Below are positions 4,299 through 20,000 of a DNA stretch of 20,000 nucleotides, piece by piece. Position 1 is the first letter of the stretch; each line of letters begins with the position of its first letter. Where the stretch lies: positions 116,838 to 136,837 of IMG/VR virus record IMGVR_UViG_2030936005_000022. The stretch is one strand, 5' to 3'. A program made the position numbers and the translations under genes. A model generated the notes under the pieces. The model ran no database searches. It was not told the origin of the DNA and saw nothing but the letters and a program-made list of their open reading frames with translations. Source of the stretch: an uncultured virus (IMG/VR IMGVR_UViG_2030936005_000022). Taxonomy: Duplodnaviria; Heunggongvirae; Uroviricota; Caudoviricetes.

Positions 4299-4326
4299 TT
4301 TTTAATTCCCTTTAAGTAATATGTTA

Positions 4327-4716: not shown

Positions 4717-4750
4717 AATGTCGCCTCCTTACGAATTTTTATGATGATTT

Positions 4751-5941: not shown

Positions 5942-5956
5942 AGTACCCCACAAATG

Positions 5957-5983
5957 TTAAAAGGACGTGAAATCACGTCCTTT
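5957..5983 (-). terminator. Intrinsic terminator-like hairpin overlapping the end of the small ORF
   Basis: AAAGGACGTG-x4-CACGTCCTTT perfect 10-bp stem, ending in a T run on the minus strand. Confidence 0.7.
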
Positions 5984-6106: not shown

Positions 6107-6108
6107 GT

Positions 6109-6432
6109 TTACTCCAAGTCAGGGTTTTTAACTGAAAGACTCTCAATATCTGATGCATAGATCATCACATGCGGTTTGTCTTCTGCTACCTTAAAGTCGT
6201 GGTAGCTGTCCTTCACAATGAAATTATCAAGGATAAATCCTTTAGTGAGGAATAGCATATACTTATTATCATCTTTTGTCAAGTAAGTATTGCGACGATT
6301 TTCTACATTTCGTTGAGCAGTATCTTCTTCCGTATTTCTACAAACACGTTCGTTATATTCCTGATGGGTATACATTGGCATTCCCATTACCCAAGACGAT
6401 TCTGTACTAATTGTTACAATAAAAGATTGCAC
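6109..6432 (-). CDS. Hypothetical protein (start uncertain: GTG 6432 or ATG 6387/6375)
   Basis: ORF track; co-oriented with neighbours. A possible extended -10 (TGTGATACAAT) lies at 6481-6491. Confidence 0.6.
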   Translation of the reverse strand: MQSFIVTISTESSWVMGMPMYTHQEYNERVCRNTEEDTAQRNVENRRNTYLTKDDNKYMLFLTKGFILDNFIVKDSYHDFKVAEDKPHVMIYASDIESLSVKNPDLE

Positions 6433-6580
6433 TTATCCGAGTGGAAGCAATCATGCATAGACTTACTACACAAAACAAGCATTGTATCACATCACGAAAA
6501 TTAAACATAATATCGTGAATCTCAAAGGCATCTTGAGTGATAATATCTTGTACGGGACCACTCTCTTTTATTCCGATCAT
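6407..6580 (-). CDS. Small hypothetical ORF (57 aa), not in the ORF track; may be the 5' part of a frameshifted gene with 6109..6432
   Basis: AAGGAG RBS then ATG 6580: MIGIKESGPVQDIITQDAFEIHDIMFNFRDV...; TAG at 6407-6409. Confidence 0.5.
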   Translation of the reverse strand: MIGIKESGPVQDIITQDAFEIHDIMFNFRDVIQCLFCVVSLCMIASTRISAIFYCNN

Positions 6581-6631
6581 AGTTCACTCCTTGAACCTAT
6601 TCACGAGTACAATCCATGTACTCTCAATATA

Positions 6632-7117
6632 TCATTTAGCTTCTAGCTTATACGCCTCAACCGCTTCAGATACATTCTCGATAGCTTGATCGATAAATTC
6701 TTTACTAACTAAACGCGGGGAGGTCTTCATTTCTTTTAGAAGCTCTAGGTATTTAGTCATTAATTCTGGGATGATTCCAAAGTCGAAATCATGCACAGTG
6801 CTGTACTGAAATAGTTCACCACCATCGACATACAAGCGATTGTACGAGGTTTTAAACCCACTTTCGAGTACTGTTAGGGTCAAATCCAAACCACGCTCAT
6901 ACGAGCCTACAGACACGATAGCAGGGTTGATAGCAATACTAGCATTCTTTGCATTATCACTATAAACTAAACGTAAAGTTCCAGCACCAATAATAACAGT
7001 TAGGTCATCTGTATTAAGGGTAGTAATATCCCCAGAAACAGAAACTTTATTATTTAGACGGTCTTTAGTACTGAAAGATTTAGATAGCCGTGCAAATGCA
7101 TCTTCAAGTTTATTCAT
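6632..7117 (-). CDS. Array paralog (FQxS family)
   Basis: Motif GGELFQYSTVHD; start overlaps the upstream stop by 1 nt. Confidence 0.8.
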   Translation of the reverse strand: MNKLEDAFARLSKSFSTKDRLNNKVSVSGDITTLNTDDLTVIIGAGTLRLVYSDNAKNASIAINPAIVSVGSYERGLDLTLTVLESGFKTSYNRLYVDGGELFQYSTVHDFDFGIIPELMTKYLELLKEMKTSPRLVSKEFIDQAIENVSEAVEAYKLEAK

Positions 7118-7557
7118 TATTCGTAATCCTTTAGTAGTTCTACTAGTTTAACAATACTATCATCACTGCAAGTGTACGATAGGTTTAGAAGGGTGTACTG
7201 GAAGAAATCAATTTCATTAATTCCACCATACGGTACTGGTTGGGCTTTACCTTGTTTGTCTGCCATGTAAACATCTTCTGCATCAAAACGCATAGAAAAT
7301 GTATCACGTTCTTCTGGGTTCAAATACACAATAAAACGACCCAAGGATTTAGCAAGTTTTTCAATCCTGATGCTATTAGAACCATAACTGAACTCAGCAT
7401 CACCGCGATCATTCTGGAAATGATAGAAGTTGATACCACCAATATTAGTATAGCCCTCTGTGTATAGAAGGTCTTTGTGGTGATACATAACTTGAATCAG
7501 TTCATCAAGCGTAGTCGTCCGAGTCTTATTTTTGGTTAGCGAAAATAAATGAATCAT
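7117..7557 (-). CDS. Array paralog (FQxS family)
   Basis: Motif EIDFFQYTLLN. Confidence 0.75.
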   Translation of the reverse strand: MIHLFSLTKNKTRTTTLDELIQVMYHHKDLLYTEGYTNIGGINFYHFQNDRGDAEFSYGSNSIRIEKLAKSLGRFIVYLNPEERDTFSMRFDAEDVYMADKQGKAQPVPYGGINEIDFFQYTLLNLSYTCSDDSIVKLVELLKDYE

Positions 7558-7987
7558 AAATTCCTCTGCACATGGATAACGTTTTAATCATTGTATCATA
7601 GTCGAACTTGACTTGCAACCCCCAACCACCCACACAATTTTGAGTGAAGAAAACACCCTCCATCTCGTCAAGTGTGAACGCTTCATCAAACAAATTAGTC
7701 TGATATAATTCGGTCTTTGGATTGTATACCATCAAGAATTCAGTACTGTAACGTATTACTAATTTCTTTGGACTAATCATAATCCTGCATAAATCTTGCA
7801 AGTACTCAGTGCGAATATGTAAGTTAATGTGATTCTTATGACCAGCACAACGAACATCCATCGCGTATCCATCACCGATAACAAAACCATTTCTGGGGGT
7901 AAATTCTTTACCCGCACTCATTGACAGGCAATCCTGTACAATATAATTGATTGTATCCAAGTTGTCAAGTATATCTACTTTACGCAT
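7526..7987 (-). CDS. Array paralog, divergent motif
   Basis: AAGGAG RBS before ATG 7987 (MRKVDIL); motif-like EMEGVFFTQNCV. Confidence 0.7.
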   Translation of the reverse strand: MRKVDILDNLDTINYIVQDCLSMSAGKEFTPRNGFVIGDGYAMDVRCAGHKNHINLHIRTEYLQDLCRIMISPKKLVIRYSTEFLMVYNPKTELYQTNLFDEAFTLDEMEGVFFTQNCVGGWGLQVKFDYDTMIKTLSMCRGIYDSFIFANQK

Positions 7988-7997
7988 ATCTTCTCCT

Positions 7998-8567
7998 TTA
8001 AATCCCAACCTTATGTATCAATGTACGACGAATTTTACGAACATACTGAGTCTTAAATGAAAACGGGATATAAAGATGATAACCCTCTAATTCCGGGCAA
8101 GGTGCTGTAAGAATCTCTTCATAGGCTCTTTTAATTATATTGTACTCTGGTAGTTCTGGGTGGATCAACGATAACTGAAAATGCTCATCTTCAGTACATA
8201 ACCCTTCCTTAAAGAATGTGTCAACATAATCATCAGTATCCAATAAATCTGAATTTTCAGAATTAACAAAAGAATAACCAAAAAATTCATCATCTTTGTT
8301 GTAGGCAACACTGCAACCTGTATTACAAAATAATGAAATGCCAGTATCTTTGGATAAATGGAATACATGTTCGGAACCGTAACCATCAATGTATGTTCTT
8401 ATATATATTTTATCTTTATCAGTCCATACAAATTCTAGTTCATTACCATCGTCCATGCGAGTGTTTTGTTGATAACTATAAGCTACTTTTTGTTTCCTGA
8501 AATTCAAACAACGAATAGCTAGATCTCTACATAACTCGAAATGCTCTTTAAGTTCTTCATAGTTCAT
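7998..8567 (-). CDS. Array paralog (FQxS family)
   Basis: Motif TEDEHFQLSLIHP. Confidence 0.8.
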   Translation of the reverse strand: MNYEELKEHFELCRDLAIRCLNFRKQKVAYSYQQNTRMDDGNELEFVWTDKDKIYIRTYIDGYGSEHVFHLSKDTGISLFCNTGCSVAYNKDDEFFGYSFVNSENSDLLDTDDYVDTFFKEGLCTEDEHFQLSLIHPELPEYNIIKRAYEEILTAPCPELEGYHLYIPFSFKTQYVRKIRRTLIHKVGI

Positions 8568-8570
8568 TGG

Positions 8571-9179
8571 TTAAAATTCCTCAAAGTACAAACAAATGTC
8601 ATCATAGATAGTGTTAAGAAGTTCAGTACTAACTTCTGGACAAAGATCCATATAGAAACACATACCTTTCATTTCAGTACAATCCATAGTTAGTGCTTCC
8701 ATATAACGTGGAAGGTCTTCGTACTTCAATACCATATCATCACGAATAAGTGATTGTTGAAAGTACTCTTCCTCGCTGATATTAATTACACCACCATCTA
8801 GCTTAGAATCCAAGTACTCATCTTCGTGATCATTCCCACTATCAAAGAATGTATACTCTTCATTACGTTCATCACCTTCCATGAAGTTACGGCCCCATCC
8901 ACGATGTGTACGGAGATTGATAATATACAAGTGCTCATGATTTCCAATTTCGCAAATCTCGTAACGTTCTTCGTGATCATCCATATCAAATGATACACGA
9001 ACTAATGCATGTTCGTCTGCGTACTTAAACCCATACACCCTGCATAAGTATTGTGGCATGTACTTTTCATAAGAGAATACTTTTGGTTTATTCTTATTAA
9101 GCAAAGCACCCAATTCTAGCATAAGTTTGTAACGATAGATATCTTCATCTACTTTGTCTTTAAAGGTTGAACGCATCAT
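8571..9179 (-). CDS. Array paralog (FQxS family)
   Basis: Motif SEEEYFQQSLIRD; start probably ATG 9179 or 9176. Confidence 0.8.
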   Translation of the reverse strand: MMRSTFKDKVDEDIYRYKLMLELGALLNKNKPKVFSYEKYMPQYLCRVYGFKYADEHALVRVSFDMDDHEERYEICEIGNHEHLYIINLRTHRGWGRNFMEGDERNEEYTFFDSGNDHEDEYLDSKLDGGVINISEEEYFQQSLIRDDMVLKYEDLPRYMEALTMDCTEMKGMCFYMDLCPEVSTELLNTIYDDICLYFEEF

Positions 9180-9567
9180 AAAAGTCATTGACAATATCCT
9201 CTGCCTCATCTTGGTTCATTGGTTCTACTGAAAGTATTTCGATACGTTCAGGTTCCCAGATCATATAAGAATTACATGTATCTGGTTCGAAAAGATTTTT
9301 GTACTCAACTGAATTATATCCGTCACGAGTACAGGAATTGATTGTATCACGCCATGCTTGACAGTCACCCATGTCATCCATAGCCACTACACGACCTAGA
9401 TCTACTTCTAAGCGGTGCACATAGATCTCTAGCTCACCACTACCACAGTAGTTGCGAACCTTGCGTAAGGCCGCCTCAAGAGCACTGTGAATACCTCCCA
9501 TATGAATCCCACCATATGGAACGTAAAAATCTTTAATTTTAACTGTACTTGCGTGATACAAAATCAT
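9160..9567 (-). CDS. Putative ADP-ribosyltransferase-fold protein (ART-PolyVal-like), not a member of the array family
   Basis: N-terminal LYHAS, then GIHMG...A, and C-terminal GYNSVEYKNxxE...SYMIWEPERI resemble the LYHG...GYDG...Y[IV]VFxPxQI pattern of phage ART-like domains. Assignment by motif recall only. Confidence 0.55.
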   Translation of the reverse strand: MILYHASTVKIKDFYVPYGGIHMGGIHSALEAALRKVRNYCGSGELEIYVHRLEVDLGRVVAMDDMGDCQAWRDTINSCTRDGYNSVEYKNLFEPDTCNSYMIWEPERIEILSVEPMNQDEAEDIVNDFYDAFNL

Positions 9568-9568
9568 T

Positions 9569-10153
9569 TTAATATCCCCATAGTAATTCGTCTAAGCATT
9601 TATATGACGGATAGTAACACATCTGGGGTTCGATTGTCAAGCTATCATTATCATAAAGAGGAAGATTTCTCATACGATTCATGATCTCATTTAATTCTTC
9701 AGCAGTGTAAGTGTCCATGATAGTACTGTGCATGAATAACTCACTCTCTGCTTCAGCATCCAATTGGCTGTCACGACAGTACCAACCAATCTCGTATTCT
9801 TTCTCTTCTAGACCATATACCCGTACTGGACATGTATCACAACAAGTAGCATTAGAATAAATCTCTATCATGTTCACGGATAATCTGTTAGTTGGGTGTC
9901 TGGTAAAACATTGTCCTAGAGAAAGAATACCATTACGGTAGGAGTACTTATTTTCTTGATAAGAAATACTCATATAGTCAGGCCAGAAGTCTGCTGTTAC
10001 TGGACCTTTTTGCTGTGCATGAATATTGAGATTAATACCATCACACGTCTTCTGAAAGTTATGGTAACGCTGAATTAAAGCAAATAAAGAGAAGTACACT
10101 TTATCATTTAACATCATATCCATAACGGTTTTTAATTTTTGATCTCCAATCAT
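9569..10153 (-). CDS. Array paralog (FQxS family)
   Basis: Motif AESELFMHSTIMD; ATG 10153. Confidence 0.8.
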   Translation of the reverse strand: MIGDQKLKTVMDMMLNDKVYFSLFALIQRYHNFQKTCDGINLNIHAQQKGPVTADFWPDYMSISYQENKYSYRNGILSLGQCFTRHPTNRLSVNMIEIYSNATCCDTCPVRVYGLEEKEYEIGWYCRDSQLDAEAESELFMHSTIMDTYTAEELNEIMNRMRNLPLYDNDSLTIEPQMCYYPSYKCLDELLWGY

Positions 10154-10772
10154 TACCACACCTTTCTGCCATTAATTCAATAAGTGCTTTACGTGCTGGA
10201 ACAAAACGCAACACGTCTGTTGTACCTAATGCAAGAATTGATTCAGTACTGATATCATCCTTGAACATTTTTAAATGATCATGTACGAAGTGTACTAGAT
10301 ATGCACCATCAATTCTTTTTTGATCCCCTACCAGTAAAGCCTGAAACTCTGCTTCACGCATCGAATCATTGTCTATCCCCTCAAGAATCATATTATACAC
10401 TATCGCAAAATCATTGTCAAAGTTGCGATATAAATTATCAATACAATCCATATGGGATAGTACAAATCTGTACTTTGAATTGTTAGGGGAAGTGAAGTTC
10501 TTAATATGATTCTTACTACTTGTAATAGTAATTAATCTATCATAACCTTCATCGTATGTAATAGCATTGTGTAAATTTACTTCAGGCCATCCAAAGCTAA
10601 AACGGTATGACCGAATCTTTTCACCTTTCTCGTGAGGGATATAATGCTGACCACCAATACCACTTCTGTACTTTGCTAAATCTGGGTAATTATCATTGTA
10701 GAGTTTAAACATGTACATAATATCTAAAATGTACCCAGATAGCTTTTTCATCTTTTCGTATGAAGTCTTCAT
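10104..10772 (-). CDS. Array paralog, divergent motif
   Basis: ATGA overlap start at 10772 (MKTSYEK); motif REAEFQALLVGD. Confidence 0.75.
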   Translation of the reverse strand: MKTSYEKMKKLSGYILDIMYMFKLYNDNYPDLAKYRSGIGGQHYIPHEKGEKIRSYRFSFGWPEVNLHNAITYDEGYDRLITITSSKNHIKNFTSPNNSKYRFVLSHMDCIDNLYRNFDNDFAIVYNMILEGIDNDSMREAEFQALLVGDQKRIDGAYLVHFVHDHLKMFKDDISTESILALGTTDVLRFVPARKALIELMAERCGNDWRSKIKNRYGYDVK

Positions 10773-11347
10773 GCTAAATTTAATAACCCCCATACCTTTT
10801 GAGTACAATAATCTTTGAGTTTAATGTCGTTAAGTTCCTCTTTATTCTCGGCAATTGAAATGGCATAATCAGGTGGACAGAACTCACTAAAGTGATGATA
10901 ATGTTCCCTCATCATTACATAATCCGAATAATCAGGAACCGAAGCCAAAGTACTCAACTGAAATATTTCCTCTTCAGTAATATCAATTGGTACTTGAGAT
11001 AGTTCTACTGTACTATTTCCAATCACAATATCAGTACTGGAAGAATTCATATACATATTCATACGTTTTGAAATCGTATCACCAAAACCACTAAACATCA
11101 ACCTAGATTCTTTTGGCATAAGCATATTTGGTGAAGGAGAGACATTGAATATTTTAATTCTAAAGATTGATATATTATCACGGTGTTTAACATCAAATGT
11201 AGTTTCATACTCATCTTTGTATAAACACATCTTCAACAATCCCATACAACCATCATAGCTCATCATTAAGTCTACATAGAAAGAAGGTACATTATTATTG
11301 AAATGTATTACTGCTTTTAATAAGTTTGTGTAATCTTTGAAATCCAT
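10769..11347 (-). CDS. Array paralog (FQxS family)
   Basis: Motif TEEEIFQLSTLAS. Confidence 0.8.
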   Translation of the reverse strand: MDFKDYTNLLKAVIHFNNNVPSFYVDLMMSYDGCMGLLKMCLYKDEYETTFDVKHRDNISIFRIKIFNVSPSPNMLMPKESRLMFSGFGDTISKRMNMYMNSSSTDIVIGNSTVELSQVPIDITEEEIFQLSTLASVPDYSDYVMMREHYHHFSEFCPPDYAISIAENKEELNDIKLKDYCTQKVWGLLNLA

Positions 11348-11829
11348 GCCATGCCCTCATCTAGAATTGAATCAATAATCTCAAAGTTTTCATCACTCAT
11401 GCGGTTGACCATAATAGTATTAATATCTGGGTTTAAATTCTTTAGTACTGCTAGAATAGTTAACGCACGTGCATCCGGTACAATCAAATCCGATAGGAAG
11501 AAAAGTTCTTCCTCGTTATTACCATCCCATTCTGGAACTAATACTGTCTTATTATCAACTAGCAATTCATTACCTTGACACCTACGCCAGAACATAAGAA
11601 TACCATTTACAGTCGTATCCATTCTATTTTCTAGTACTGGATTCGGATGATTGAAAGTTCCAATTCCAAATACTGGAAGATTGTAATCATTATTCAGGAT
11701 TTGAAATCCAGAACCAGCAGTACTATAATTCGTATTGAACTCGAATTTACCTTTAGTAATACGGTTACCAATACAAGAGTAAGGTTGTAATGCGTCAACT
11801 TTTTTACAGAAGTTTAAAATATCAGTCAT
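11317..11829 (-). CDS. Array paralog (FQxS family)
   Basis: Motif NEEELFFLSDLIV. Confidence 0.78.
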   Translation of the reverse strand: MTDILNFCKKVDALQPYSCIGNRITKGKFEFNTNYSTAGSGFQILNNDYNLPVFGIGTFNHPNPVLENRMDTTVNGILMFWRRCQGNELLVDNKTVLVPEWDGNNEEELFFLSDLIVPDARALTILAVLKNLNPDINTIMVNRMSDENFEIIDSILDEGMAWISKITQTY

Positions 11830-12340
11830 GGAATGTATCTCTCAATTTAGTAAGTTCTTCAATAATAGTATCAACACAGAATGTATGATTAGAGTACGAA
11901 AGAACACTAATTCCATTCGGGTTGTTGTACTTATAATGAGACATAATCGCAATCTCATCAATTGCGGTGTTATCATAAATTGTACTCAACTGGAAGATCT
12001 CACCTTCACCCTCACCAGTTTCAATGTTAACCGGGAATAAATTGATAGAAACACTATCCTTACCACCAATATAATCCATGTGTTTACATTCACTAAGACG
12101 AATAGAACTCGCTTGGTGTTCAGAACCATAACATATAGGAGCCACTTTAGACTCCCTTGTTGAAATGTGATAAAGAGTTGTAATGTTCAAAACAGTATAA
12201 AGACTAATACCCATATCATCATTGTGGAAAGTAATACCAACATTATCATACAGTGTTTTACAGAAGTTCTTCCCCTCAAATGCATAAAGAGGTAATAGTT
12301 CTTCCAAGAGTTTTAGTACTTTATAATGTTTCTGATACAT
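11822..12340 (-). CDS. Array paralog (FQxS family)
   Basis: Motif GEGEIFQLSTIYD. Confidence 0.8.
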   Translation of the reverse strand: MYQKHYKVLKLLEELLPLYAFEGKNFCKTLYDNVGITFHNDDMGISLYTVLNITTLYHISTRESKVAPICYGSEHQASSIRLSECKHMDYIGGKDSVSINLFPVNIETGEGEGEIFQLSTIYDNTAIDEIAIMSHYKYNNPNGISVLSYSNHTFCVDTIIEELTKLRDTFHD

Positions 12341-12984
12341 TAGATATCCTCTTTTAAATTCTGTACAAAAGTAACAATCTTACTTTCTACTTCATCAATG
12401 ATTGAATCATCAACAACAGTAGGAAGGTTTATGTACTGATCATATTTCTTTTCATTCTTCGCTACGTAACCGTCAAACATGTTATCAACGATATTAAGTA
12501 AACTGAAGATACAGTACAACCCAAATGAATGACCATCAAAGGCAGTAACAGTACTGTGTTGGAATTCCAACTCTTCCATCTCATCACGTACAATCAAAGA
12601 ACCACCAGCTTCTACTGGAAGCGACTCAAGCTCAATAGCTTCGTGTGCATTCTTTTCAGTGAAACGTAATGTAGTCTTTTTACCTGATAGTACTAAAGAT
12701 TTACCAGTTAAGTAATTTTCAGGACTGTAGTAACCGTTATTTTCAGCTAGATGCGTTTTGAGAATAGTATTACCATTATGTGTCTCATTGTTCATAATCA
12801 TAACAATGAACTCATTACTCCCACGTGTATAGAATAAACGCAAGGAATGTGTATCATTAACATCACCCAAATCCCACATCATTCTGTGCTTGATTTCAGT
12901 ACTGTCAGATTGATCTAAAAGTACAGTCGCTTGTTGAATGTACTTAATCATACGGTAGTGCTTTAACATGCTATTGTGATTCAT
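12340..12984 (-). CDS. Array paralog (FQxS family)
   Basis: Motif MEELEFQHSTVTA. Confidence 0.8.
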   Translation of the reverse strand: MNHNSMLKHYRMIKYIQQATVLLDQSDSTEIKHRMMWDLGDVNDTHSLRLFYTRGSNEFIVMIMNNETHNGNTILKTHLAENNGYYSPENYLTGKSLVLSGKKTTLRFTEKNAHEAIELESLPVEAGGSLIVRDEMEELEFQHSTVTAFDGHSFGLYCIFSLLNIVDNMFDGYVAKNEKKYDQYINLPTVVDDSIIDEVESKIVTFVQNLKEDI

Positions 12985-13577
12985 TATAGTATCCTGTATC
13001 TTCTGAATAATGGCCTACTTGTAAAATAATTATACAGATAATCATTCTCCAAGTCAACCCCTCTGTGGAAATTATATACCACAAAATCGATGTTCTTCAG
13101 CCGCAATGCTTGAAAGTCAATGACGTTGTACATCATATCACGCATAAATTTGTTGTCCACTGTGAAGTCCACTGCTACTTTGCGTTCAGCCGCATCACAC
13201 GTTTGATCATACGGAATATATTCTTCTAGTACATCTCCACTATCTAAGTAACCACTACGCATAGTCAAGCACTGATCACTGAGTGAAGTTAATATAACAC
13301 TATCAGTGTACATATAATAGTTCACGTGAGTATGGCTTGTTATTAACCCTTCGGATGCATAGAATGTTATCACGTCATTGTTTAGTGAAGCTACATTCTT
13401 CTTCTCAAGTACAAGTTTCTTTACTGACTTATTATTACCTAAATCTTCAGTATCAACCCTTAAAGCAAACTCACCCAAGTCAATAAGATCTTTGCGATGG
13501 ATTAGTCTTTCCCATTCTATGTCAAGCATTGAACTGAACTTAATAAGCTCTCTATATATCGTGTCAAGTGTGTTCAT
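12984..13577 (-). CDS. Hypothetical protein within the array; family motif not clearly present
   Basis: ATG 13577 (MNTLDTIY) after a GGGGG RBS-like element; same size class as the paralogs. Confidence 0.72.
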   Translation of the reverse strand: MNTLDTIYRELIKFSSMLDIEWERLIHRKDLIDLGEFALRVDTEDLGNNKSVKKLVLEKKNVASLNNDVITFYASEGLITSHTHVNYYMYTDSVILTSLSDQCLTMRSGYLDSGDVLEEYIPYDQTCDAAERKVAVDFTVDNKFMRDMMYNVIDFQALRLKNIDFVVYNFHRGVDLENDYLYNYFTSRPLFRRYRIL

Positions 13578-13588
13578 AAGACCCCCAT

Positions 13589-13622
13589 AAAAGAAAAGGC
13601 AGTGTATCACGATACACCGCCT
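13589..13622 (-). terminator. Intrinsic terminator inside the array
   Basis: Minus strand AGGCGGTGTATC-GT-GATACACTGCCT (one G.U pair) followed by TTTCTTTT. Confidence 0.8.
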
Positions 13623-13631
13623 GTGTCAACA

Positions 13632-14186
13632 TCAACATGCCGCTTCTGCTTCAAAAATATCAATCATAGCTTGAACCGCTTCAGTACTGAAGGATAACAA
13701 GCGAGTCGCATTTAGTGCAAAATAATAATCGTTATTCATTGTGTTATGATAACAGTACTCAATGTATGAAGCAAATAGTTCTATTTCATTATCTACAACC
13801 ATACGCTGGAATAGTTCATCATCAGTACCATTGACAATTATTTCAATTTCAGCACACTCTGGATTGTTATCAAAATTGATAATCTTACGCTCTAAGCAAG
13901 TCTCTAAACTATGCATAGTTAGAAGTATATCACCTAGATTGGTTTTTTGTATATGCATAGTACCTTCAGAACTTCTGTCCAAATAAGTATGACACGCAAC
14001 TAAGAACCAATCATCTATTGTACTTTTAAGTACTGAACTATGATGTTCGCGATTAATAACATCAGTCCCAACAAAAACAGTCATCTTTGCTAAATCAGTA
14101 ATATTTCTGCACATGTGCCGTTTATTGTCATGTATATCCATGATGCAATCAATAAGTTTCTTTATTAGATCGAATTTGGCAAACAT
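13632..14186 (-). CDS. Array paralog (FQxS family)
   Basis: Motif TDDELFQRMVVDN; AGGAGA RBS. Confidence 0.8.
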   Translation of the reverse strand: MFAKFDLIKKLIDCIMDIHDNKRHMCRNITDLAKMTVFVGTDVINREHHSSVLKSTIDDWFLVACHTYLDRSSEGTMHIQKTNLGDILLTMHSLETCLERKIINFDNNPECAEIEIIVNGTDDELFQRMVVDNEIELFASYIEYCYHNTMNNDYYFALNATRLLSFSTEAVQAMIDIFEAEAAC

Positions 14187-14779
14187 TTCTTTTTCATCTC
14201 CTGAAGTTCAGAATGAGCATCATAGATTTTCTGTACTGAATTAGCAAAACAAATATAAACCTTAGTGTGGTTTTCTTCACAGAGAGTATCTTTCAACATG
14301 AAGTTCAATACCATAGCATTGATTTCATCAGTACTATATACTAGACCCTTCTGGAATAATTCACCCCGTAACTCTTCTTCATTATTAACATGTATTAGAG
14401 TAGGAAGATATACCTCATCACCTTGTATATCCCGCCAGAACCAATTACGATCATTCACTACTAAGATTTCACCACTACCTTCTCGAATGCACATACGCTT
14501 CTTGTCTGACTGATAGCGAGTACTGTATGGTCTGTTGTCATCCATAGGATCAGTATTAGCTGCTACAATAAATGAATTATAATAGTTCACATCTTCAGAA
14601 TTCAACTGCAATGCAATACTATTTTGTATCTTCAGGATTTTGTACTTTGAACTCTCATATAGTACTGCATCCATCTGGGTTACATCATCTAATACCATGT
14701 AATCAGCTATGTCACGAATCAATAAACAAACTTCTTGTACTGCTAACCACTCCAAATAACTACAATCTGCTAAATTCAT
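14165..14779 (-). CDS. Array paralog (FQxS family)
   Basis: GGAG RBS before ATG 14779 (MNLADCSY); motif LRGELFQKGLVYS. Confidence 0.8.
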   Translation of the reverse strand: MNLADCSYLEWLAVQEVCLLIRDIADYMVLDDVTQMDAVLYESSKYKILKIQNSIALQLNSEDVNYYNSFIVAANTDPMDDNRPYSTRYQSDKKRMCIREGSGEILVVNDRNWFWRDIQGDEVYLPTLIHVNNEEELRGELFQKGLVYSTDEINAMVLNFMLKDTLCEENHTKVYICFANSVQKIYDAHSELQEMKKKCLPNSI

Positions 14780-14810
14780 CTTAATCTCCAACTTAAACGC
14801 AATCTCATAG

Positions 14811-14905
14811 CACCGTCGCCCGGTCGCCCCCCGATTACACTTTATTTGCACTTTGTGAAGCGAAAATTTTTTTACGCCCCGGCACGCATATCCTCCGGGG
14901 GGTAA
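14811..14905. other. GC-rich intergenic island with inverted and direct repeats (candidate terminus, packaging or origin element)
   Basis: GTCGCCC x2 (14815-14821, 14823-14829), CACTTT x2, an A4T7 tract, and the stem TTACgCCCCGG/CCGGGGgGTAA (14872-14882/14895-14905) in otherwise AT-rich DNA. Confidence 0.6.
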
Positions 14906-14908
14906 CAT

Positions 14909-15544
14909 TTATTTATGCTTTGTAATTTCCATCATTTCGGCTAATTTCTTGTTCACATTCATAATAGCTGTATCTAAACGTTTAATCTGTAACAAACTCT
15001 GTCCGTAATAAATCATTTCACCTAACTTGTACTCCGCATCACGTAAACCCATCCACGTAGCAGCACCATCCGTCAAACGACTATCAATACACATCTGTGT
15101 CTGGAATAATGTCTCATCTGGTAGCTCCATAATATCTAAACCATCAGGCAATTGTACTGCACTGTTCTCGTACTTAACTTGTGCAAACAAAGGGGTATTA
15201 CGCATTACGTACTGAATGTAATTACTATCTTCTGTACTTTTAATAACTGAATGTGTTGGAATTGGCTTCAATGGGATAATGGGCATGTTACGATTTAAAC
15301 TAACGTACATTGAATTACCTTTACCAACAGATAAATCTATTTCGTCTGATTTTCCCGTTCCTGCACTAAAAAAATACTTCTCTTCTTCAAACAATGCCTG
15401 TACTTCATTGTAGGTCACTCCACGTGCTCTGTGCTCACGAATCAACCACAACCCAGCAGCAATGTGCGGTAAATATTCATTACCGATTATGTACTGATCA
15501 CGGAACTTCTTACCCTCTTTACTCACTTTTAATTTTAATGACAT
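14909..15544 (-). CDS. Array paralog (FQxS family)
   Basis: Motif PDETLFQTQMCID. Confidence 0.78.
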   Translation of the reverse strand: MSLKLKVSKEGKKFRDQYIIGNEYLPHIAAGLWLIREHRARGVTYNEVQALFEEEKYFFSAGTGKSDEIDLSVGKGNSMYVSLNRNMPIIPLKPIPTHSVIKSTEDSNYIQYVMRNTPLFAQVKYENSAVQLPDGLDIMELPDETLFQTQMCIDSRLTDGAATWMGLRDAEYKLGEMIYYGQSLLQIKRLDTAIMNVNKKLAEMMEITKHK

Positions 15545-16211
15545 ATTCTTCTAATGCCTCAATAATTTCATCGTAAGGAATCACTATAACATTATCCACC
15601 GCGATTGTCAATACTCCCGTAAGGATATCACACGTATTAACTAAATCATCGCCCTTCTCAAAGGTACGCTTGATTTGATCAATACCCATCGAAAAATCAC
15701 TCAACACCTTATCAGCATCTAATGCCATATCAGGCTCGCAACTCACATTGTGCTGGAATAACTCGCATTCTAACGCATCGTAACCATCCTCAAAGGGATT
15801 CTCTAAACTGAATACCCTTGGCCTACCCTTCTGTACTACGGCCCCTGCTGACACCATAGCGATATCCTGAAGCGATTTATAGGAACTCTGCCACGATAAC
15901 CAATGACCATCTGTACTGATAATCGGTACTGCATTCTCGAATTTACTATAATGACACGCTCTGAACTCAGCAATGGGTACAAATAACATACCACTCATTG
16001 TCGGTACTTCAATCTGTAATGAAGCAACCCATACATCATTTGTGTGATCAGGGTGGTAATACTTCTTCGGTACTCGTATACGAAAACCTTGCGGTACTGA
16101 ACCTACTACTTTACGATCAATACAACGTGGCATTGCCTCCATTATCTGTACTAACCTTTGTAATTTAATACTGTTCAAAGCCTGTGTATCCATTGTATCC
16201 ATTGAATCCAT
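15519..16211 (-). CDS. Array paralog (FQxS family)
   Basis: Motif LECELFQHNVSCE; N-terminal MDS-MDT-MDT repeat leaves the start ambiguous. Confidence 0.78.
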   Translation of the reverse strand: MDSMDTMDTQALNSIKLQRLVQIMEAMPRCIDRKVVGSVPQGFRIRVPKKYYHPDHTNDVWVASLQIEVPTMSGMLFVPIAEFRACHYSKFENAVPIISTDGHWLSWQSSYKSLQDIAMVSAGAVVQKGRPRVFSLENPFEDGYDALECELFQHNVSCEPDMALDADKVLSDFSMGIDQIKRTFEKGDDLVNTCDILTGVLTIAVDNVIVIPYDEIIEALEEYVIKIKSE

Positions 16212-16809
16212 ACTGTTCTCTCATCAATTTGATAATGTTCAATACGCCCTCACAATGGTTCAACGGATCTGCACCTAACCACATTTGAATGTTAGGTAAC
16301 TTCCGTCTACGCCACTCGAACGCAAACATCAAAGCATTAATAACTTCAACCTTCTGTACTAAACTCTCTTGGAACAAAAACATCTCCGTATCTGGATCTG
16401 TCATGTCCATCATTTCGTACTCAAAATATATATCACTAATGATACTTTTACGGAATATAATTCTATCACTATCTTTGTTTAATGATATATGACTCGTTAC
16501 TGTATCATTTAATAATACTACGTTTAACTCTATGTTTGTGGTATAATCCCAATTGTACTTTAAAACCGTTTTATTAACACACGCTATATGAAAAAACTGC
16601 TTTTTATCTTTATAATTATAATTGAAAAAACCACCATCCCTTTCAAAACCTACAACAACATCATTCTCAAAATTCCATGACTGTACATTGAATACTTTTT
16701 GTTGTATGTCTTTATTCTTCAGGTACTCATTCGTGATACCAATTAATGCCATCGCTTCCTCTAGGTAATCAATGCATTGACGCACCTCTTGTACTGTTAA
16801 TATGTTCAT
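16165..16809 (-). CDS. Array paralog (FQxS family)
   Basis: Motif TEMFLFQESLVQK. Confidence 0.8.
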   Translation of the reverse strand: MNILTVQEVRQCIDYLEEAMALIGITNEYLKNKDIQQKVFNVQSWNFENDVVVGFERDGGFFNYNYKDKKQFFHIACVNKTVLKYNWDYTTNIELNVVLLNDTVTSHISLNKDSDRIIFRKSIISDIYFEYEMMDMTDPDTEMFLFQESLVQKVEVINALMFAFEWRRRKLPNIQMWLGADPLNHCEGVLNIIKLMREQYGFNGYNGYTGFEQY

Positions 16810-17372
16810 AACTTTGGCTCCCCAAGCTGTACGTATAATTCATTGAAGCGTTTATTCTGGTAATATTCTATGGTACTCTCCATGCTCTCTATTACACGAT
16901 CTAATACATTTAAGGACCACACGTGTACAAAAGCAAACCTAGGCATCTTTAATTCATGTAATGCGTACATAATACAAAACTCATCGTACAACTTATCATG
17001 TATTAAACTCTGCTGAAATAAAAATGATTCCTTATCGTTGAAATCTAATTCATATTTCGTACCATCTTCATCATCGATATCCCGCACGAATGCTGTACTA
17101 TTTGGATTGTAAATTATTACATTGTGCTGATTACCCTTGATAATTTTCTTATCCGAAATGTAATTGTAATCCCACATATCCCCCCAAGCGATCTTGTGAT
17201 CGATAACAGGGTCACTACCCTGATACCACACGCAATCACCCCTATCATGAAAAGCTGATACCATCAAAGGACTTCTGCATATTGGTGTATCACATGTGTA
17301 TGTGTACAACTGCTCCAATAAGGAATCAATCTTGCATATTTTCTGTGCGTACTCTATGTGCCAATCTTGCAT
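16806..17372 (-). CDS. Array paralog (FQxS family)
   Basis: Motif KESFLFQQSLIHD; ATG 17372. Confidence 0.8.
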   Translation of the reverse strand: MQDWHIEYAQKICKIDSLLEQLYTYTCDTPICRSPLMVSAFHDRGDCVWYQGSDPVIDHKIAWGDMWDYNYISDKKIIKGNQHNVIIYNPNSTAFVRDIDDEDGTKYELDFNDKESFLFQQSLIHDKLYDEFCIMYALHELKMPRFAFVHVWSLNVLDRVIESMESTIEYYQNKRFNELYVQLGEPKL

Positions 17373-17898
17373 CAACTTCCCCTATGAATTCTGCTGTACT
17401 GTTCTGTACATATTCTAAAATCTCTAATAAACCCTGTAATGAATATGCATTAAAACGTAATGTGAAATTGTGCTTGAACTCATTCTCTTTAAGATACAAC
17501 CAAAATCCTACATCAATTTCTTGTTCTGTGCTTTGTACTAAACTCTGCTGGAATAGCCATTCCTCGGTCAAATTCTTACGCTCATGGAATGCATGATGTA
17601 TACGTATTGTATCACCTGTATCAAACGAAAAACGTAAAGCTACTCCTTTCGCCCTGTGAGGTTCTCCCATAATGAATGAAACACTATTACACAAGGACTT
17701 TGCAAGGACTCTACTCTCTTCATCGGTGGGATGATTGAAATATTCTAATGCACCTCTGCTTATTGTAAAACATTTTGGTACTTGCATCTTAATATCATTA
17801 CGCATAGCTTCGCAATTCTTAATTACAAATAATGTGTACGTATCATATAATGTCTTTAAGGCTTCCATCGCCTGTCCGTACTCGTGTCTCTCGATCAT
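17326..17898 (-). CDS. Array paralog (FQxS family)
   Basis: Motif TEEWLFQQSLVQS; GGAG RBS before ATG 17898. Confidence 0.8.
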   Translation of the reverse strand: MIERHEYGQAMEALKTLYDTYTLFVIKNCEAMRNDIKMQVPKCFTISRGALEYFNHPTDEESRVLAKSLCNSVSFIMGEPHRAKGVALRFSFDTGDTIRIHHAFHERKNLTEEWLFQQSLVQSTEQEIDVGFWLYLKENEFKHNFTLRFNAYSLQGLLEILEYVQNSTAEFIGEVDARLAHRVRTENMQD

Positions 17899-18430
17899 AA
17901 ATCTTCTCCAAATCAGCAAGAAATACATCTACATCAAACCATAAATTCTGATGGAAGGTTCCCAATATCCCAGCATTATGCATAGCGGATACAACGTACT
18001 GACAATGTACAACCTCTGGTTTCGCTACGAATTGCAACTGCTCATACATAGCCTCATCCATCTCTTCTGTACTAAGGATATCATGAACTGAAAAGGTATT
18101 GCAAGAACTTTCGTACAAAAAATCCATCGTGTTTTCAATGTTTACACTACAATACGTACAATTCTGTACATCTCTGTAATTAGCAAAATTCGTATCGTCT
18201 GTTGTACTAATCAATGTGTATGTATTCAAAAGATTCTTTTTGTTATAATACAACATGTGCTCAAGGTCACCATCTAAATGTAAACTCATCTCGATTTTTA
18301 TTGTACCACATGAACTAAAATATGTACCCTTACCATCGTAATTTACAATAAATGCTTTGTACTTCTCTAACCATTCAAAGCACTTTAGGATTTTATTTGT
18401 GTAATTTGTTGTGTACTCAAATGTGTACAT
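17843..18430 (-). CDS. Array paralog, YxQL subfamily
   Basis: Motif DEAMYEQLQFVAK; AGGAGG RBS. Confidence 0.8.
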   Translation of the reverse strand: MYTFEYTTNYTNKILKCFEWLEKYKAFIVNYDGKGTYFSSCGTIKIEMSLHLDGDLEHMLYYNKKNLLNTYTLISTTDDTNFANYRDVQNCTYCSVNIENTMDFLYESSCNTFSVHDILSTEEMDEAMYEQLQFVAKPEVVHCQYVVSAMHNAGILGTFHQNLWFDVDVFLADLEKIYDRETRVRTGDGSLKDII

Positions 18431-18963
18431 AGCACCTCCTGGAACAACGTAATTAACTCTCTTGGACTGTGTACTAAATTCTCATAATACACCAACTGCC
18501 TCTCTTGACTATCCAAAATACTCATGAGAATAATACAATTCACTACATCTTTAGTGTGTACAAATTCTAATTGATCATACATCTCTTGGGTTATCTCTGT
18601 ACTTTTAAGATACTGATAACATGATAACTCTCTGTGCATTATACCTATGTCAAATGTTGTATTGCACTTCTGATGGAAATTGTAAAAACGATATCCACCT
18701 TCTCCATTGTCAACCCAACTGCCATCAGTAGGATCTAAATTGTAAAAACCAATAGTACAAATTTCGTACTGGTCTTTACTTAAACGCCATGCATTACCCT
18801 CAACGCCATGTACTAAATTCCGTAACTCAAAACCATTTGTTAAACCAATAGGCTTACCCCAGCACGAATATGTTCTAGTACTGTAAACTAAATCCATCAA
18901 TTCAATTATATCTTGTGCATATTGCTTTACTTCTTCAAATGTCTCTAACTCAATTAGTTTCAT
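18385..18963 (-). CDS. Array paralog, YxQL subfamily
   Basis: Motif TQEMYDQLEFVHT. Confidence 0.8.
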   Translation of the reverse strand: MKLIELETFEEVKQYAQDIIELMDLVYSTRTYSCWGKPIGLTNGFELRNLVHGVEGNAWRLSKDQYEICTIGFYNLDPTDGSWVDNGEGGYRFYNFHQKCNTTFDIGIMHRELSCYQYLKSTEITQEMYDQLEFVHTKDVVNCIILMSILDSQERQLVYYENLVHSPRELITLFQEVLCTHLSTQQITQIKS

Positions 18964-19477
18964 ATAAAGCTAATCCTTCATCAATATTAATATATTCTAA
19001 ATTGACTTTAAATGGCGTAGTACATACCTTCATCAACTCCAAATATAATTCTAATGTATCATATGCATGATTTGGTAGTACTAAACTCTGCTGGAATAAT
19101 ACGTCCTCAGTATAAATGCTAGGATCTTTAATTGTAAATTTCGTTTCATCTGTAAAACCTGATATACTTGTAATGTACTCATCTTTTCCACCAGTAGGAG
19201 AGAAACAAATAATATCTGTCTTTTCAGTCATCCATCTCTCTTGTGAACAAGTATTCCAATAATCACCTGCACAAATAACAAATGCATGATCTTGCATATG
19301 ACATGATACATTAAGACCATCAGGTGTATCGTACTCATCATGTGCATCATCAAACAATTCTGAACTATGTCTGTATCCATAATGATCCATGTAAGTACTA
19401 GGATCAGCTAGAAAGTACTTCACTAATTTTGCTAACTTCCTAGCTAAGATGGTAGTTTCTGATTCCGTATTTTTCAT
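18950..19477 (-). CDS. Array paralog (FQxS family)
   Basis: Motif TEDVLFQQSLVLP. Confidence 0.8.
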   Translation of the reverse strand: MKNTESETTILARKLAKLVKYFLADPSTYMDHYGYRHSSELFDDAHDEYDTPDGLNVSCHMQDHAFVICAGDYWNTCSQERWMTEKTDIICFSPTGGKDEYITSISGFTDETKFTIKDPSIYTEDVLFQQSLVLPNHAYDTLELYLELMKVCTTPFKVNLEYINIDEGLALYETN

Positions 19478-20000
19478 CTAATACCTCATATAATTCTTCT
19501 ATCTTAGGACTGAACCACACCCTAAAAGATGTATCGTATTCTTTAAAGTACTGTACAAATTGTACTACATTTAAAATAGTATCGCTATACACAGTACTGA
19601 ATTGGAATTCTTCATCTTCATTGAGTAGGTTGTGTTGTAATGTACTAACTGTCTGACCTTCACCATCAACCTCAATATCTACTTCATCTGCCCTCTTATG
19701 ATTGATGTAGATAAAATCAGTATAGTAATCATCATTGTAAAAAGTTGGTGGTGCACTAACTCTTTCATGTGTATTCTCTAGACAGAACATGTATTGATCT
19801 TTCTGTATCTCAAGTTCATTAGTACTAACAAGATACATCTCTTGATTGTTCTCATGAACATGCATAGAAAAGTCTTTGTTAATGTAATAAATTTCATAAT
19901 GCTGATAGATAGATATGCATTTCATCTTGTGCTTATCTTGCATAAAACTCTTCATGAAAGCAATTACATTTTCTACCTTAAGACATAACTCTTTGTTAGT
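19440..20000 (-). CDS. Array paralog (FQxS family), 5'-partial
   Basis: Motif NEDEEFQFSTVYS. The frame stays open to the window edge (TNKELCLKVENVIAF precedes MKSFM), so the start probably lies beyond 20000. Confidence 0.8.
   Translation of the reverse strand, partial: TNKELCLKVENVIAFMKSFMQDKHKMKCISIYQHYEIYYINKDFSMHVHENNQEMYLVSTNELEIQKDQYMFCLENTHERVSAPPTFYNDDYYTDFIYINHKRADEVDIEVDGEGQTVSTLQHNLLNEDEEFQFSTVYSDTILNVVQFVQYFKEYDTSFRVWFSPKIEELYEVLDEKYGIRNYHLS

What the first reader, a model, noticed from the sequence alone, without database searches (positions are those of the whole stretch)
14664..18552. 3.9-kb strand-specific exclusion zone: zero AGT and almost no AGA on the + strand
Seen: reading line by line, the last + strand AGT is at 14661 and the next at 18553. 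In between I count 0 AGT and 6 AGA (15329, 17492, 17919, 18104, 18231, 18527) against about 31 AGC and 27 AGG, the reverse of what AT-rich DNA should give. AGT is common elsewhere in the window, and ACT/TCT remain plentiful on the + strand inside the zone. On the coding strand this means ACT/TCT (WCT) is purged in all three frames across six complete genes, so it is not just codon bias. Sister paralogs outside the zone are unaffected. The zone starts within about 150 bp of the GC-rich island and fades after 18.5 kb. Inference: positional selection against a short polar signal. Candidates are a recognition site for a phage primase, nickase, terminase or translocase that must not act next to the island; a target of a host ssDNA-modifying defence (DarT-type toxins modify T in short pyrimidine contexts) on a strand exposed here; or ACU/UCU mRNA-interferase sites in first-expressed transcripts.
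Basis: partly seen in the sequence, partly recalled or inferred. Interest (0 to 1): 0.92.

Follow-up and report, generated by a model that had tools for sequence, protein, structure and literature searches.

The report
Conserved ACT-free gene block in jumbo phages
A run of early genes in a group of giant enterobacterial phages contains not one ACT on its coding strand for 2 to 8 kilobases, a conserved and unreported pattern that implies some unknown enzyme acts at this three-letter signal.

Summary
The + strand has 0 AGT from 14664 to 18552 (about 82 expected) and 6 AGA (about 51 expected). AGC and AGG are normal.

All genes here lie on the - strand, so the coding strand lacks ACT and nearly lacks TCT. 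Amino-acid composition is unchanged. Thr, Ser and Leu are recoded synonymously, and ACT is also missing across codon junctions and in non-coding DNA. Codon bias therefore cannot explain it.

The gap is 80 times the mean AGT spacing and is unique in the complete 360-kb genome. The same zone sits at the syntenic place in 6 cultured relatives:
- Munch and fENko-Kae01: about 2 kb
- EJP2: 2.2 kb
- A4: 7.0 kb
- PBECO4: 7.6 kb
- fEgEco12: 8.3 kb

Serratia phage BF and Cronobacter phage GAP32 have no such zone in their whole genomes.

The zone always ends 40-200 nt into the gene that follows a single-copy, promoter-like element with a G-rich leader. This element lies a few kb inside the left terminal repeat and is also present in the zone-less genera.

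I did not resolve the mechanism. My best guess (0.35) is that these early mRNAs are immune to an endoribonuclease cutting at ACU. The main rival (0.3) is a primase- or nickase-blind DNA strand next to a candidate origin. My literature searches found no prior report.

The parts
14664..18552 (-). ACT-free zone on the coding (- strand): 0 ACT and 6 TCT, seen as 0 AGT and 6 AGA on the + strand
17843..18430 (-). zone ORF 1 (195 aa), a paralog of the E-x-LFQ-x-S family. It has 0 ACT; its best match in fENko-Kae01 has 13
17326..17928 (-). zone ORF 2 (200 aa), a paralog. It has 0 ACT; its fENko counterpart has 8
16806..17375 (-). zone ORF 3 (189 aa), a paralog with 0 ACT and 0 TCT
16165..16809 (-). 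zone ORF 4 (214 aa), a paralog, 38-41% identical to the fENko/Munch counterpart
15519..16211 (-). zone ORF 5 (230 aa), a paralog
14909..15544 (-). zone ORF 6 (211 aa). It has no homolog in the phage collection by tblastn. A sigma-70-like promoter (TTGACA-17-TATAGT, TG-extended) lies at 15611-15583
18385..18963 (-). paralog that holds the upstream zone boundary (first ACT at 18555-18553, 122 nt before the start codon of ORF 1). Only its last 56 codons are ACT-free
It holds ATAAATAAATGTTA (14916-14903) and the hairpin CCCCGG/CCGGGG (14900-14877). Next come the core A7T4CGCT (14873-14859) and a -10-like TAAAGT (14844-14839). It ends with a G-cluster leader (14833-14811) and GGAG (14789-14786)
14165..14779 (-). 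first gene after the element (start 14779). Its first 38 codons are ACT-free and the downstream zone boundary (ACT at 14663-14661) lies inside it. The whole gene has 10 ACT

Best explanation
The zone is a block of early genes whose coding strand is kept free of ACT (absolutely) and of TCT (partly, most strongly before a purine) by purifying selection. This selection acts on synonymous sites, codon junctions and untranslated spacers. I think the selected molecule is most likely the mRNA. In this reading a ribosome-independent endoribonuclease cuts single-stranded RNA at ACU and less well at UCU. It is active early in infection and cuts host mRNAs and the other phage mRNAs roughly every 50 nt. 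It could be host- or phage-encoded and is not identified. Transcripts of this block have no site, so they alone stay intact and translatable. This would be a natural counterpart of the engineered ACA-less mRNAs that survive MazF. What is shown: the exclusion, its all-frame and non-coding nature, its strand, its conservation, its position, and that the block holds several sigma-70-type transcription units. What is inferred: that RNA rather than DNA is the selected molecule, and that such a nuclease exists.
For: 1. The avoided strand is the sense strand of every gene in the zone, in all 7 genomes that have it.
2. The purge is absolute, as expected when a single site is enough to lose the message. 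Counts are 0 of about 82 (window), 0 of 141 (A4) and 0 of 155 (PBECO4), and fEgEco12 has 0 over 8,293 bp.
3. Protein composition is kept while codons change. Thr ACT is 0 of 66 in the zone against 72 of 132 outside. Ser TCT is 2 of 69 against 29 of 141. Leu CTN is 16 of 107 against 97 of 203. Codon-junction ACT is 0 against 18.4 +/- 3.1 expected.
4. The upstream boundary lies 22-137 nt before a start codon in 4 of 6 lineages (A4 22-28, PBECO4 71, window 125, fEgEco12 137; the exceptions are EJP2 at 287 and fENko, where it lies inside a gene). This fits whole cistrons plus their ribosome-binding regions.
5. The A4 zone holds 5 near-consensus (11 of 12) sigma-70 promoters, all on the sense strand. 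It also holds one canonical intrinsic terminator followed directly by one of those promoters. The zone is therefore several early transcription units, and each one is site-free.
6. Every ORF of 110 aa or more with zero sense ACT in three whole genomes lies in the zone (A4 12 of 12, G001 6 of 6, fENko 1 of 1).
7. Ribosome-independent toxins with 3-nt sites exist: MazF ACA, ChpB U^AC and MqsR G^CU (passages of PMC8546651).
Against: 1. No nuclease with ACU specificity is known to me or was found. The E. coli K-12 toxin motifs ACA, UAC and GCU, and also AAAU and GGAG, are not depleted in the zones (ratios 0.91-2.45).
2. Six-frame searches found no PemK/MazF (PF02452) in fENko, A4 or G001. They found no match above the family cut-off for RegB (PF10715) in those three or in BF and GAP32; the only hit was a 12.8-bit match in BF.
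3. The zone always runs on through the promoter-like element and 40-200 nt into the next gene. An mRNA-immunity model does not need this.
4. No zone gene is conserved across the three lineages at blastp E 1e-3, apart from paralog-level likeness. Nothing specific is visibly being protected, and that fits a position-based DNA function as well or better.
5. The roughly 50 genes of the terminal repeat, which presumably are expressed first, are not ACT-free.
6. No expression data were available.
Confidence: 0.35

Rival explanations
1. DNA-level signal. In this reading 5'-ACT-3' (weaker, 5'-TCT-3') on the sense strand is the recognition triplet of the phage primase, or the site of an ssDNA nickase or nuclease. 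That strand must stay unprimed or uncut for 2-8 kb on one side of the conserved element, which would be the primary (R-loop type) origin. A fork moving with transcription would then make one long Okazaki fragment across the block, primed just past the element.
For: The zone is anchored on a deeply conserved, single-copy non-coding element at a syntenic place a few kb inside the left terminal repeat. This element is also present in BF, GAP32 and CBB, which have no zone. Its layout is an A-tract, then (T/C)CGCT, then a -10-like hexamer, then a G-cluster leader on the non-template strand. Recalled, from no call here: this resembles the promoter-plus-unwinding layout of T4 oriF/oriG and the G-clusters that seed R-loops. 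Primases read template trinucleotides with a cryptic 3' base (recalled: T7 GTC, T4 GTT/GCT, DnaG CTG). Template WCT would give purine-started pppG(U/A) primers, like T4 GCT. Zone membership follows position, not gene identity: orthologs are ACT-free in one lineage and carry 8-13 ACT in another, and A4 and PBECO4 hold non-homologous genes in their zones. The zone crosses the promoter-like element into the next gene. The weaker motif TCT is tolerated only in the distal 0.6-1 kb of each zone. Asteriusviruses encode primase/helicases (passage of PMC13070987).
Against: Primases use only a small share of their sites (recalled), so one extra site should cost little, and a perfect purge of about 200 expected sites is then surprising. 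I can name no benefit of a primer-free strand. No origin has been mapped in these phages. The DnaG-type zinc ribbon (PF01807) was not found in fENko, A4 or G001, so the primase type is unknown. The zone-less genera keep the element without any exclusion, except a 403-nt ACT gap across it in GAP32.
Confidence: 0.3
2. Transcription-level signal. In this reading ACT in the non-template strand (ACU in nascent RNA) makes host RNA polymerase pause or terminate once a phage or host factor is present (recalled analogy: T4 Alc on cytosine DNA). Polymerases must cross this block and the element without stopping.
For: The signal is specific to the sense strand and polar, and it ends just past a promoter-like element. 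The zone holds several strong early promoters. The element has no canonical terminator, so read-through is likely.
Against: The rest of the genome is transcribed in the same direction with an ACT every 50 nt. There is an intrinsic terminator inside the A4 zone. No such factor or trinucleotide stop signal is known to me.
Confidence: 0.1
3. A single-strand DNA base modifier or mutator. In this reading a DarT-like ADP-ribosyltransferase or a deaminase with an ACT hot spot hits the sense strand while it is exposed. Sites there are selected against, or are burnt out by repeated mutation plus purifying selection.
For: The pattern is strand-specific. The exposed strand in transcription bubbles and R-loops would be the sense strand. 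TCT belongs to a reported DarT2 motif set (recalled).
Against: TNTC, TTTW and TTT are not depleted and TTT is enriched. DarT1 has no consensus motif. Divergence between A4 and PBECO4 inside the zone (74-89% identity) is like that of the flanks (73-96%), so there is no sign of hypermutation. Nothing explains why only this block would be exposed.
Confidence: 0.07
4. No signal at all: a codon-usage island, a tRNA-supply effect, or a horizontally acquired block with different composition.
For: Codon usage does differ in other ways too: more GAG, CAG and AAG, and Gln at 4.3% against 2.4%.
Against: Out-of-frame and non-coding ACT are also absent; 0 of 2000 codon-preserving shuffles reach the observed count. 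GC content is unchanged (0.332 against 0.337 in A4). The same triplet is excluded in lineages whose zone genes are not homologous. The boundaries cut through genes.
Confidence: 0.01

Closest known systems
ACA-less mRNAs that survive MazF (engineered single-protein-production system; recalled, not from a call)
   Same: A 3-nt RNase site is removed from a message in all frames by synonymous recoding, which leaves the protein unchanged.
   Different: That system is engineered, single-gene and uses ACA. Here the pattern is natural, covers 6-13 genes plus spacers, uses ACU (and partly UCU), and has no identified nuclease. ACA is enriched in the zones (1.24-1.35).
T4 RegB, the phage endoribonuclease that cuts GGAG in early mRNAs (recalled)
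   Same: A phage-timed, sequence-specific RNase separates sensitive from resistant early messages.
   Different: No RegB match above the family cut-off was found in 5 genomes. GGAG is not depleted (1.0-2.45). RegB targets a 4-mer that lies mostly in Shine-Dalgarno regions, not a triplet found every 50 nt.
Primase recognition triplets (T7 GTC, T4 GTT/GCT, E. coli DnaG CTG; recalled)
   Same: These are strand-specific trinucleotide signals with one strong and one weaker variant. WCT would give purine-started primers.
   Different: No regional exclusion of a primase triplet has been described to my knowledge. ACT is not a known primase site. The primase type of these phages was not determined.
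Restriction-site avoidance and the one-strand orientation of EcoP15I sites in T7 (recalled)
   Same: Selection removes a short nuclease signal from a phage genome, and in T7 it does so in a strand-biased way.
   Different: Those cases are genome-wide and involve 4-8-mers. Here the motif is a 3-mer, the exclusion is local (2-8 kb of 350 kb) and absolute, and the rest of the genome carries about 7,000 copies.
T4 oriF/oriG R-loop origins (recalled)
   Same: The conserved element is a unique promoter-like sequence followed by a G-rich initially transcribed region, in phages with T4-like replication genes.
   Different: No origin activity has been shown. T4 origins have no flanking triplet-free zone. 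The Asteriusvirus version of the element carries its G-run upstream of the A-tract.

Membership tests
nuclease-immune (site-free) mRNA | the site is absent from the sense strand in all three frames and in untranslated parts | tested here: met
   0 ACT in 3,889 nt, including 367 nt outside the six CDS. Out-of-frame expectation is 18.4 +/- 3.1 against 0 observed.
nuclease-immune (site-free) mRNA | the protein is kept and the change is synonymous | tested here: met
   Thr makes up 5.3% against 5.8% of residues, while ACT is 0 of 66 against 72 of 132 Thr codons.
nuclease-immune (site-free) mRNA | a cognate endoribonuclease with that specificity is present in phage or host | tested here: not met
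   PemK/MazF was absent from 3 phage genomes. RegB gave no match above the family cut-off in 5 phage genomes. The known E. coli toxin motifs differ and are not depleted. Unknown families and host genomes were not searched.
nuclease-immune (site-free) mRNA | the messages outlast others during infection | not testable with these tools
   This needs RNA time-course data.
primase-site exclusion beside an origin | the triplet is the template recognition site of the phage primase | not testable with these tools
   Only inference is available: WCT would give pppG(U/A) primers. The DnaG zinc ribbon PF01807 was not found.
primase-site exclusion beside an origin | the anchoring element is a replication origin | not tested
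   The element is single-copy, syntenic and conserved across 10 of 13 records examined by pattern. There is no functional evidence.
restriction/modification site avoidance | avoidance is genome-wide and on both strands | tested here: not met
   The antisense strand is normal. There are about 7,000 ACT elsewhere in each genome. fEgEco12 DNA is cut as predicted by SpeI and 9 other enzymes (passages of PMC13070987).
DarT (ssDNA ADP-ribosylation) motif avoidance | depletion of TNTC, TTTW or TTT/TCT on the exposed strand | tested here: not met
   TNTC is at 0.75-0.97, TTTW at 1.18-1.74 and TTT at 1.14-1.68. Only TCT is low.
codon-usage or horizontally acquired island | the effect is confined to in-frame codons or goes with changed base composition | tested here: not met

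The most novel reading that the evidence does not exclude
ACT is a DNA signal, either the phage primase's template triplet or a single-strand nickase site. These phages would then keep one strand blind to it for 2-8 kb beside their conserved origin-like element. Replication would leave a programmed, kilobase-long primer-free and nick-free stretch there. That would be a new kind of cis-acting genome architecture, written entirely in synonymous sites.
Probability: 0.25. Interest if true: 0.9.

Novelty: categorically new. Interest (0 to 1): 0.86.

Why it matters
Roughly 80 to 200 expected copies of one of the commonest triplets are missing from one strand of up to 8.3 kb. The pattern is conserved in cultured E. 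coli, Salmonella and Klebsiella jumbo phages, some of which are being considered for therapy. Something therefore reads this triplet with single-site consequences, and nothing known does.

If the molecule is RNA, it points to an unknown ACU-specific RNase and to a natural privileged-expression slot for fast-evolving early genes. If it is DNA, it points to the primase or nickase code and the origin of a large phage group in which no origin has been mapped.

Either way it is directly testable in laboratory E. coli. It also shows that largest-gap scans for short words can reveal cis-acting constraints that are invisible to gene annotation.

My three literature searches and passages of four genome papers on these phages turned up no mention of the zone.

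Tried and rejected
- Protein annotation: Pfam and PHROGs on 10 zone and flanking proteins gave no family, except one weak PHROG of unknown function.
- Structure: the AlphaFold2 model of ORF 16806-17375 with 18 paralogs had mean pLDDT 60.5, too poor for a fold search, so none was run. The Atlas search gave no usable hit.
- RNA genes: Rfam found 0 matches in 14300-19000 at E up to 1, and there are no tRNA genes in the window.
- Terminators: the scan found no canonical terminator at the element.
- Whole-genome skew: cumulative GC skew in fENko follows gene orientation and gives no origin signal.
- Phylogenetic profile: 33 fENko ORFs have homologs in G001 and A4 but not in BF or GAP32. I sent 21 of the 33 to Pfam, dropping short or antisense ORFs. 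Only an S30AE/HPF-like ribosome factor, a tail-fibre assembly domain and a weak zinc ribbon were named. No nuclease appeared.
- Family searches of phage genomes were negative for the T7-type RNA polymerase PF00940 (its control rang nowhere, so this is uninformative), PemK PF02452, the DnaG zinc ribbon PF01807 and RegB PF10715.
- More lineages: the viral-contig scans and the metagenome scan returned only the same phage. Of the 16 metagenome loci, 15 were unrelated chance matches.
- The second-largest ACT gaps in fENko, A4 and G001 are not homologous to one another.
- I considered the CRISPR type I-E PAM (AAG/CTT) and rejected it, because the ratios are explained by ACT removal.
- Sequencing runs: no RNA holder was listed.
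- Earlier findings of this scan: nothing was on record.

Full report
**The observation**

On the + strand the last AGT before the zone is at 14661 and the next is at 18553. There are also 31 AGC and 27 AGG.

Scaled from window 1-14663, the expected counts are 81.7, 50.9, 31.3 and 23.6 respectively. The reverse-complement words ACT (112) and TCT (123) remain abundant on the + strand.

The 3,892-bp gap is 79.7 times the mean AGT spacing of the 136,837-bp contig, whose next AGT gap is 434 bp. The window's phage is also held as a 359,777-bp record (G001, 100% identical over the shared 10,479 bp). In that complete genome the gap is 82.5 times the mean, the next largest is 477 bp, and no other trinucleotide on either strand comes close. 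There is no mirror zone.

Contigs assembled independently from two public runs reproduce window 14000-19200 with no mismatch. These runs may be the source samples.

**Why it is not codon bias**

All ORFs in this part of the window are on the - strand. The excluded words on the coding strand are therefore ACT and TCT.

I compared the six ORFs wholly inside the zone (1,245 codons) with twelve flanking ORFs (2,275 codons). Amino-acid composition is the same, with Thr at 5.3% against 5.8%. Codon choice is not:

| Codons | Zone ORFs | Flanking ORFs |
|---|---|---|
| Thr ACT | 0 of 66 | 72 of 132 |
| Ser TCT | 2 of 69 | 29 of 141 |
| Leu CTN | 16 of 107 | 97 of 203 |

Recoding the six proteins with the flanking codon usage gives 66.9 +/- 6.3 ACT (minimum 46 in 2000 trials). 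About half of these are in frame and a quarter are in each other frame. Keeping the zone's own codon usage and merely permuting synonymous codons still gives 18.4 +/- 3.1 out-of-frame ACT, never fewer than 9.

The 367 nt of the zone outside the six CDS are ACT-free too. The depletion of GAG, TAG, CAG and AAG on the + strand follows from the loss of WCT.

**Conservation**

The locus is syntenic with Salmonella phage Munch and Klebsiella phage fENko-Kae01. At the homologous place Munch has an AGT gap of 1,955 bp followed by one of 434 bp. fENko has coding-strand ACT gaps of 727 and 1,228 bp. These are the largest relative gap of any trinucleotide in its whole 360,105-bp genome.

More distant relatives were found through a conserved neighbouring gene, which has 72 matching records. 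I examined parts or all of 10 of these:

| Phage | Coding-strand ACT-free stretch | Expected ACT |
|---|---|---|
| Escherichia phage A4 | 6,981 bp | 141 |
| PBECO4 | 7,620 bp | 155 |
| fEgEco12 | 8,293 bp | not computed |
| EJP2 | 965 + 1,225 bp | not computed |

In A4 the next largest ACT gap in the whole genome is 504 bp.

No outlier gap for any trinucleotide exists in the whole genomes of Serratia phage BF and Cronobacter phage GAP32. None was seen in the 60-80 kb I examined around the syntenic region of fHe-Yen9-04, CBB, RaK2 and Vibrio phage 2.275.O.

In all, 7 of 13 genomes examined have the zone. Phages 7t3, SE_PL and PHA46 matched by BLAST but were not examined for it.

In the Asteriusviruses TCT is only 0.41-0.65 of expectation. 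ACT is therefore the absolute signal and TCT a secondary one. Surviving TCT favour a following T (54% against 37% outside) and avoid a following purine. The distal 0.6-1 kb of each zone has normal TCT density.

**Position, not gene identity**

Window ORFs 17843-18430 and 17326-17928 have 0 ACT. Their best counterparts in fENko carry 13 and 8. A4 and PBECO4 hold non-homologous genes in parts of their zones. No fENko zone gene has a match in A4 beyond paralog level.

In three whole genomes every ORF of at least 110 aa with zero sense ACT lies in the zone: 12 of 12, 6 of 6 and 1 of 1.

The zone proteins belong to a very divergent paralog family (11-24% identity) with a shared E-x-LFQ-x-S motif. 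Members lie both inside and outside the zone and have no known family or confident fold.

**The anchor**

Reading along the coding strand, its architecture is:

1. ATAAATAA(A/G)TGTTA, which overlaps the upstream stop codon in different frames.
2. A variable G-rich or hairpin part.
3. The core GTC-A7-T3-4-(T/C)CGCT.
4. A -10-like hexamer (TAAAGT, TAAAAT or TATAAT) 14-24 nt further on.
5. A G-cluster leader such as GGGGGGCGACCGGGCGACGG.
6. A Shine-Dalgarno sequence and the next start codon.

This layout is seen. In the Asteriusviruses the G-run instead lies upstream of the A-tract.

The core occurs exactly once in each of five whole genomes, and at the syntenic place in 10 of 13 records searched by pattern. 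That includes the zone-less BF, GAP32 and CBB. Between A4 and PBECO4 it is the best conserved stretch of the neighbourhood, at 93.6%.

The first ACT after the zone lies 40-200 nt into the next gene in all six lineages measured.

**Place in the genome**

Two of these phages have termini mapped with PhageTerm: fENko-Kae01 (direct terminal repeat 1-19,736) and fEgEco12 (1-20,993, also checked by restriction digests). The sources are the record annotation and passages of PMC11218385 and PMC13070987.

Genes read rightwards from the left end. The zone starts 4.3 kb (fENko) and 8.0 kb (fEgEco12) after the repeat ends. By homology of the last repeat genes it starts about 3.5 kb (G001) and about 6 kb (A4) after it.

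The paralog array that holds the zone is an expansion between the repeat and a conserved gene block. It measures 12 kb in fENko, 13 kb in G001 and 33 kb in A4. The corresponding interval is 4.3-4.4 kb in BF and GAP32.

**Transcription units**

The A4 zone contains five 11-of-12 matches to the sigma-70 consensus, all on the sense strand and four of them with a TG extension. It also contains one canonical intrinsic terminator that is followed directly by one of these promoters. The window zone has one such promoter before its last gene.

The zone is therefore several early-type transcription units, not one RNA.

**What can be excluded**

- Codon or tRNA effects and compositional islands are excluded.
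- Genome-wide restriction avoidance is excluded. The exclusion is local and one-stranded, and fEgEco12 DNA is cut as predicted by ten enzymes including SpeI, whose site contains both ACT and AGT. This also argues against a blocking base modification at the word.
- The motifs of DarT2 and Mtb DarT, of MazF, ChpB, MqsR and ToxN, and of RegB are not depleted on the sense strand. DarT1 has no consensus motif.
- Known families that could supply the activity were not found in the phage genomes. These were PemK/MazF and the DnaG zinc ribbon in fENko, A4 and G001, and RegB (no match above the family cut-off) in those three plus BF and GAP32.
- A phylogenetic profile of genes shared by zone-bearing phages and absent from BF and GAP32 named no nuclease.

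**Interpretation**

A perfect purge of 80 to about 200 expected sites means that one site is enough to do harm. That in turn suggests an irreversible, site-triggered event: cutting, priming or covalent modification of one strand.

I rank the readings as follows.

1. **Immunity of these early mRNAs to an ACU-cutting, ribosome-independent endoribonuclease (0.35).** In favour: the avoided strand is always the sense strand, the exclusion is all-or-none, cistrons are intact, and the units are early ones. Against: no cognate enzyme is known, the zone runs on past the element, and no zone gene is conserved.
2. **A DNA-level primase- or nickase-blind strand beside the conserved element, which I regard as a candidate R-loop origin (0.30).** In favour: the anchor, the independence from gene content and the run-on across the promoter-like element. 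Against: I can name no benefit, single primase sites should cost little, and the origin function is unshown.
3. **A transcription pause or termination signal (0.10).**
4. **A single-strand base modifier or mutational hot spot (0.07).**
5. **No signal at all (0.01).**

The remainder is for mechanisms I have not thought of.

**Novelty**

The following turned up no description of this zone:
- Three full-text searches.
- Passages of four genome papers on these phages: PMC11218385, PMC11895373 and PMC13070987. I read only found passages, not whole texts or supplements.

The phenomenon is a multi-kilobase, one-strand, absolute exclusion of a trinucleotide. It is anchored to a conserved non-coding element and written in synonymous sites. 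It does not fit any described kind of genome feature that I know. If the RNase reading proves right, it would be a striking new variant of nuclease-site avoidance.

Noticed in passing
window 14859-14873 (- strand); also BF 21,814, GAP32 27,334, CBB 24,381, EJP2 16,721, fEgEco12 37,060 (record coordinates): The core A6-7 T3-4 (T/C)CGC occurs exactly once in each of five whole jumbo-phage genomes. It always lies at the syntenic place a few kb after the left terminal repeat, even in genera without the ACT-free zone. It is a candidate essential cis element (a unique promoter or an origin).
   Followed up: partly
GAP32 record 27,050-27,453: In zone-less GAP32 the 4th largest ACT gap of the genome (403 nt) spans the conserved element. 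This may be a minimal or ancestral version of the zone. BF has only 141 nt there.
   Followed up: partly
G000 contig 6,001-10,000 (outside the window): The + strand ACT density is 104 per 2 kb, against about 40 elsewhere. I did not look into the cause.
   Followed up: no
fENko-Kae01 record 113,730-114,056: A ribosome hibernation factor homolog (Pfam S30AE, E 8e-17) is shared by the zone-bearing phages fENko, G001 and A4 but was not detected in BF or GAP32. The fENko paper lists a ribosome-associated inhibitor among virion proteins.
   Followed up: partly
fENko-Kae01 record 22,874-24,131: A 1,257-nt gap in coding-strand CCA (14.9 times the mean) lies directly upstream of the ACT-free zone. It may be chance.
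   Followed up: no
window 13597-13629 (- strand): A terminator-like hairpin (11 pairs plus a T-run) overlaps a TTGACA-17-TACACT promoter-like site, in the 21-nt gap between two paralogs. It is the next likely transcription-unit border after the element.
   Followed up: no
window 8571-19955 (- strand): At least 18 tandem, very divergent paralogs (11-24% identity) share only an E-x-LFQ-x-S motif and have no known family. The array is specific to the zone-bearing clade.
   Followed up: partly
window 323-850 (- strand): By synteny (80% DNA identity) this ORF corresponds to the Munch gene annotated as DNA N-6-adenine-methyltransferase. The ORF before it corresponds to a gene annotated as nucleotidyltransferase. 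I did not check either with a family search.
   Followed up: no
window 14866: The contig of run X2 carries one extra T in the T-run of the conserved A7T4 core. This is homopolymer length variation or a read error.
   Followed up: no
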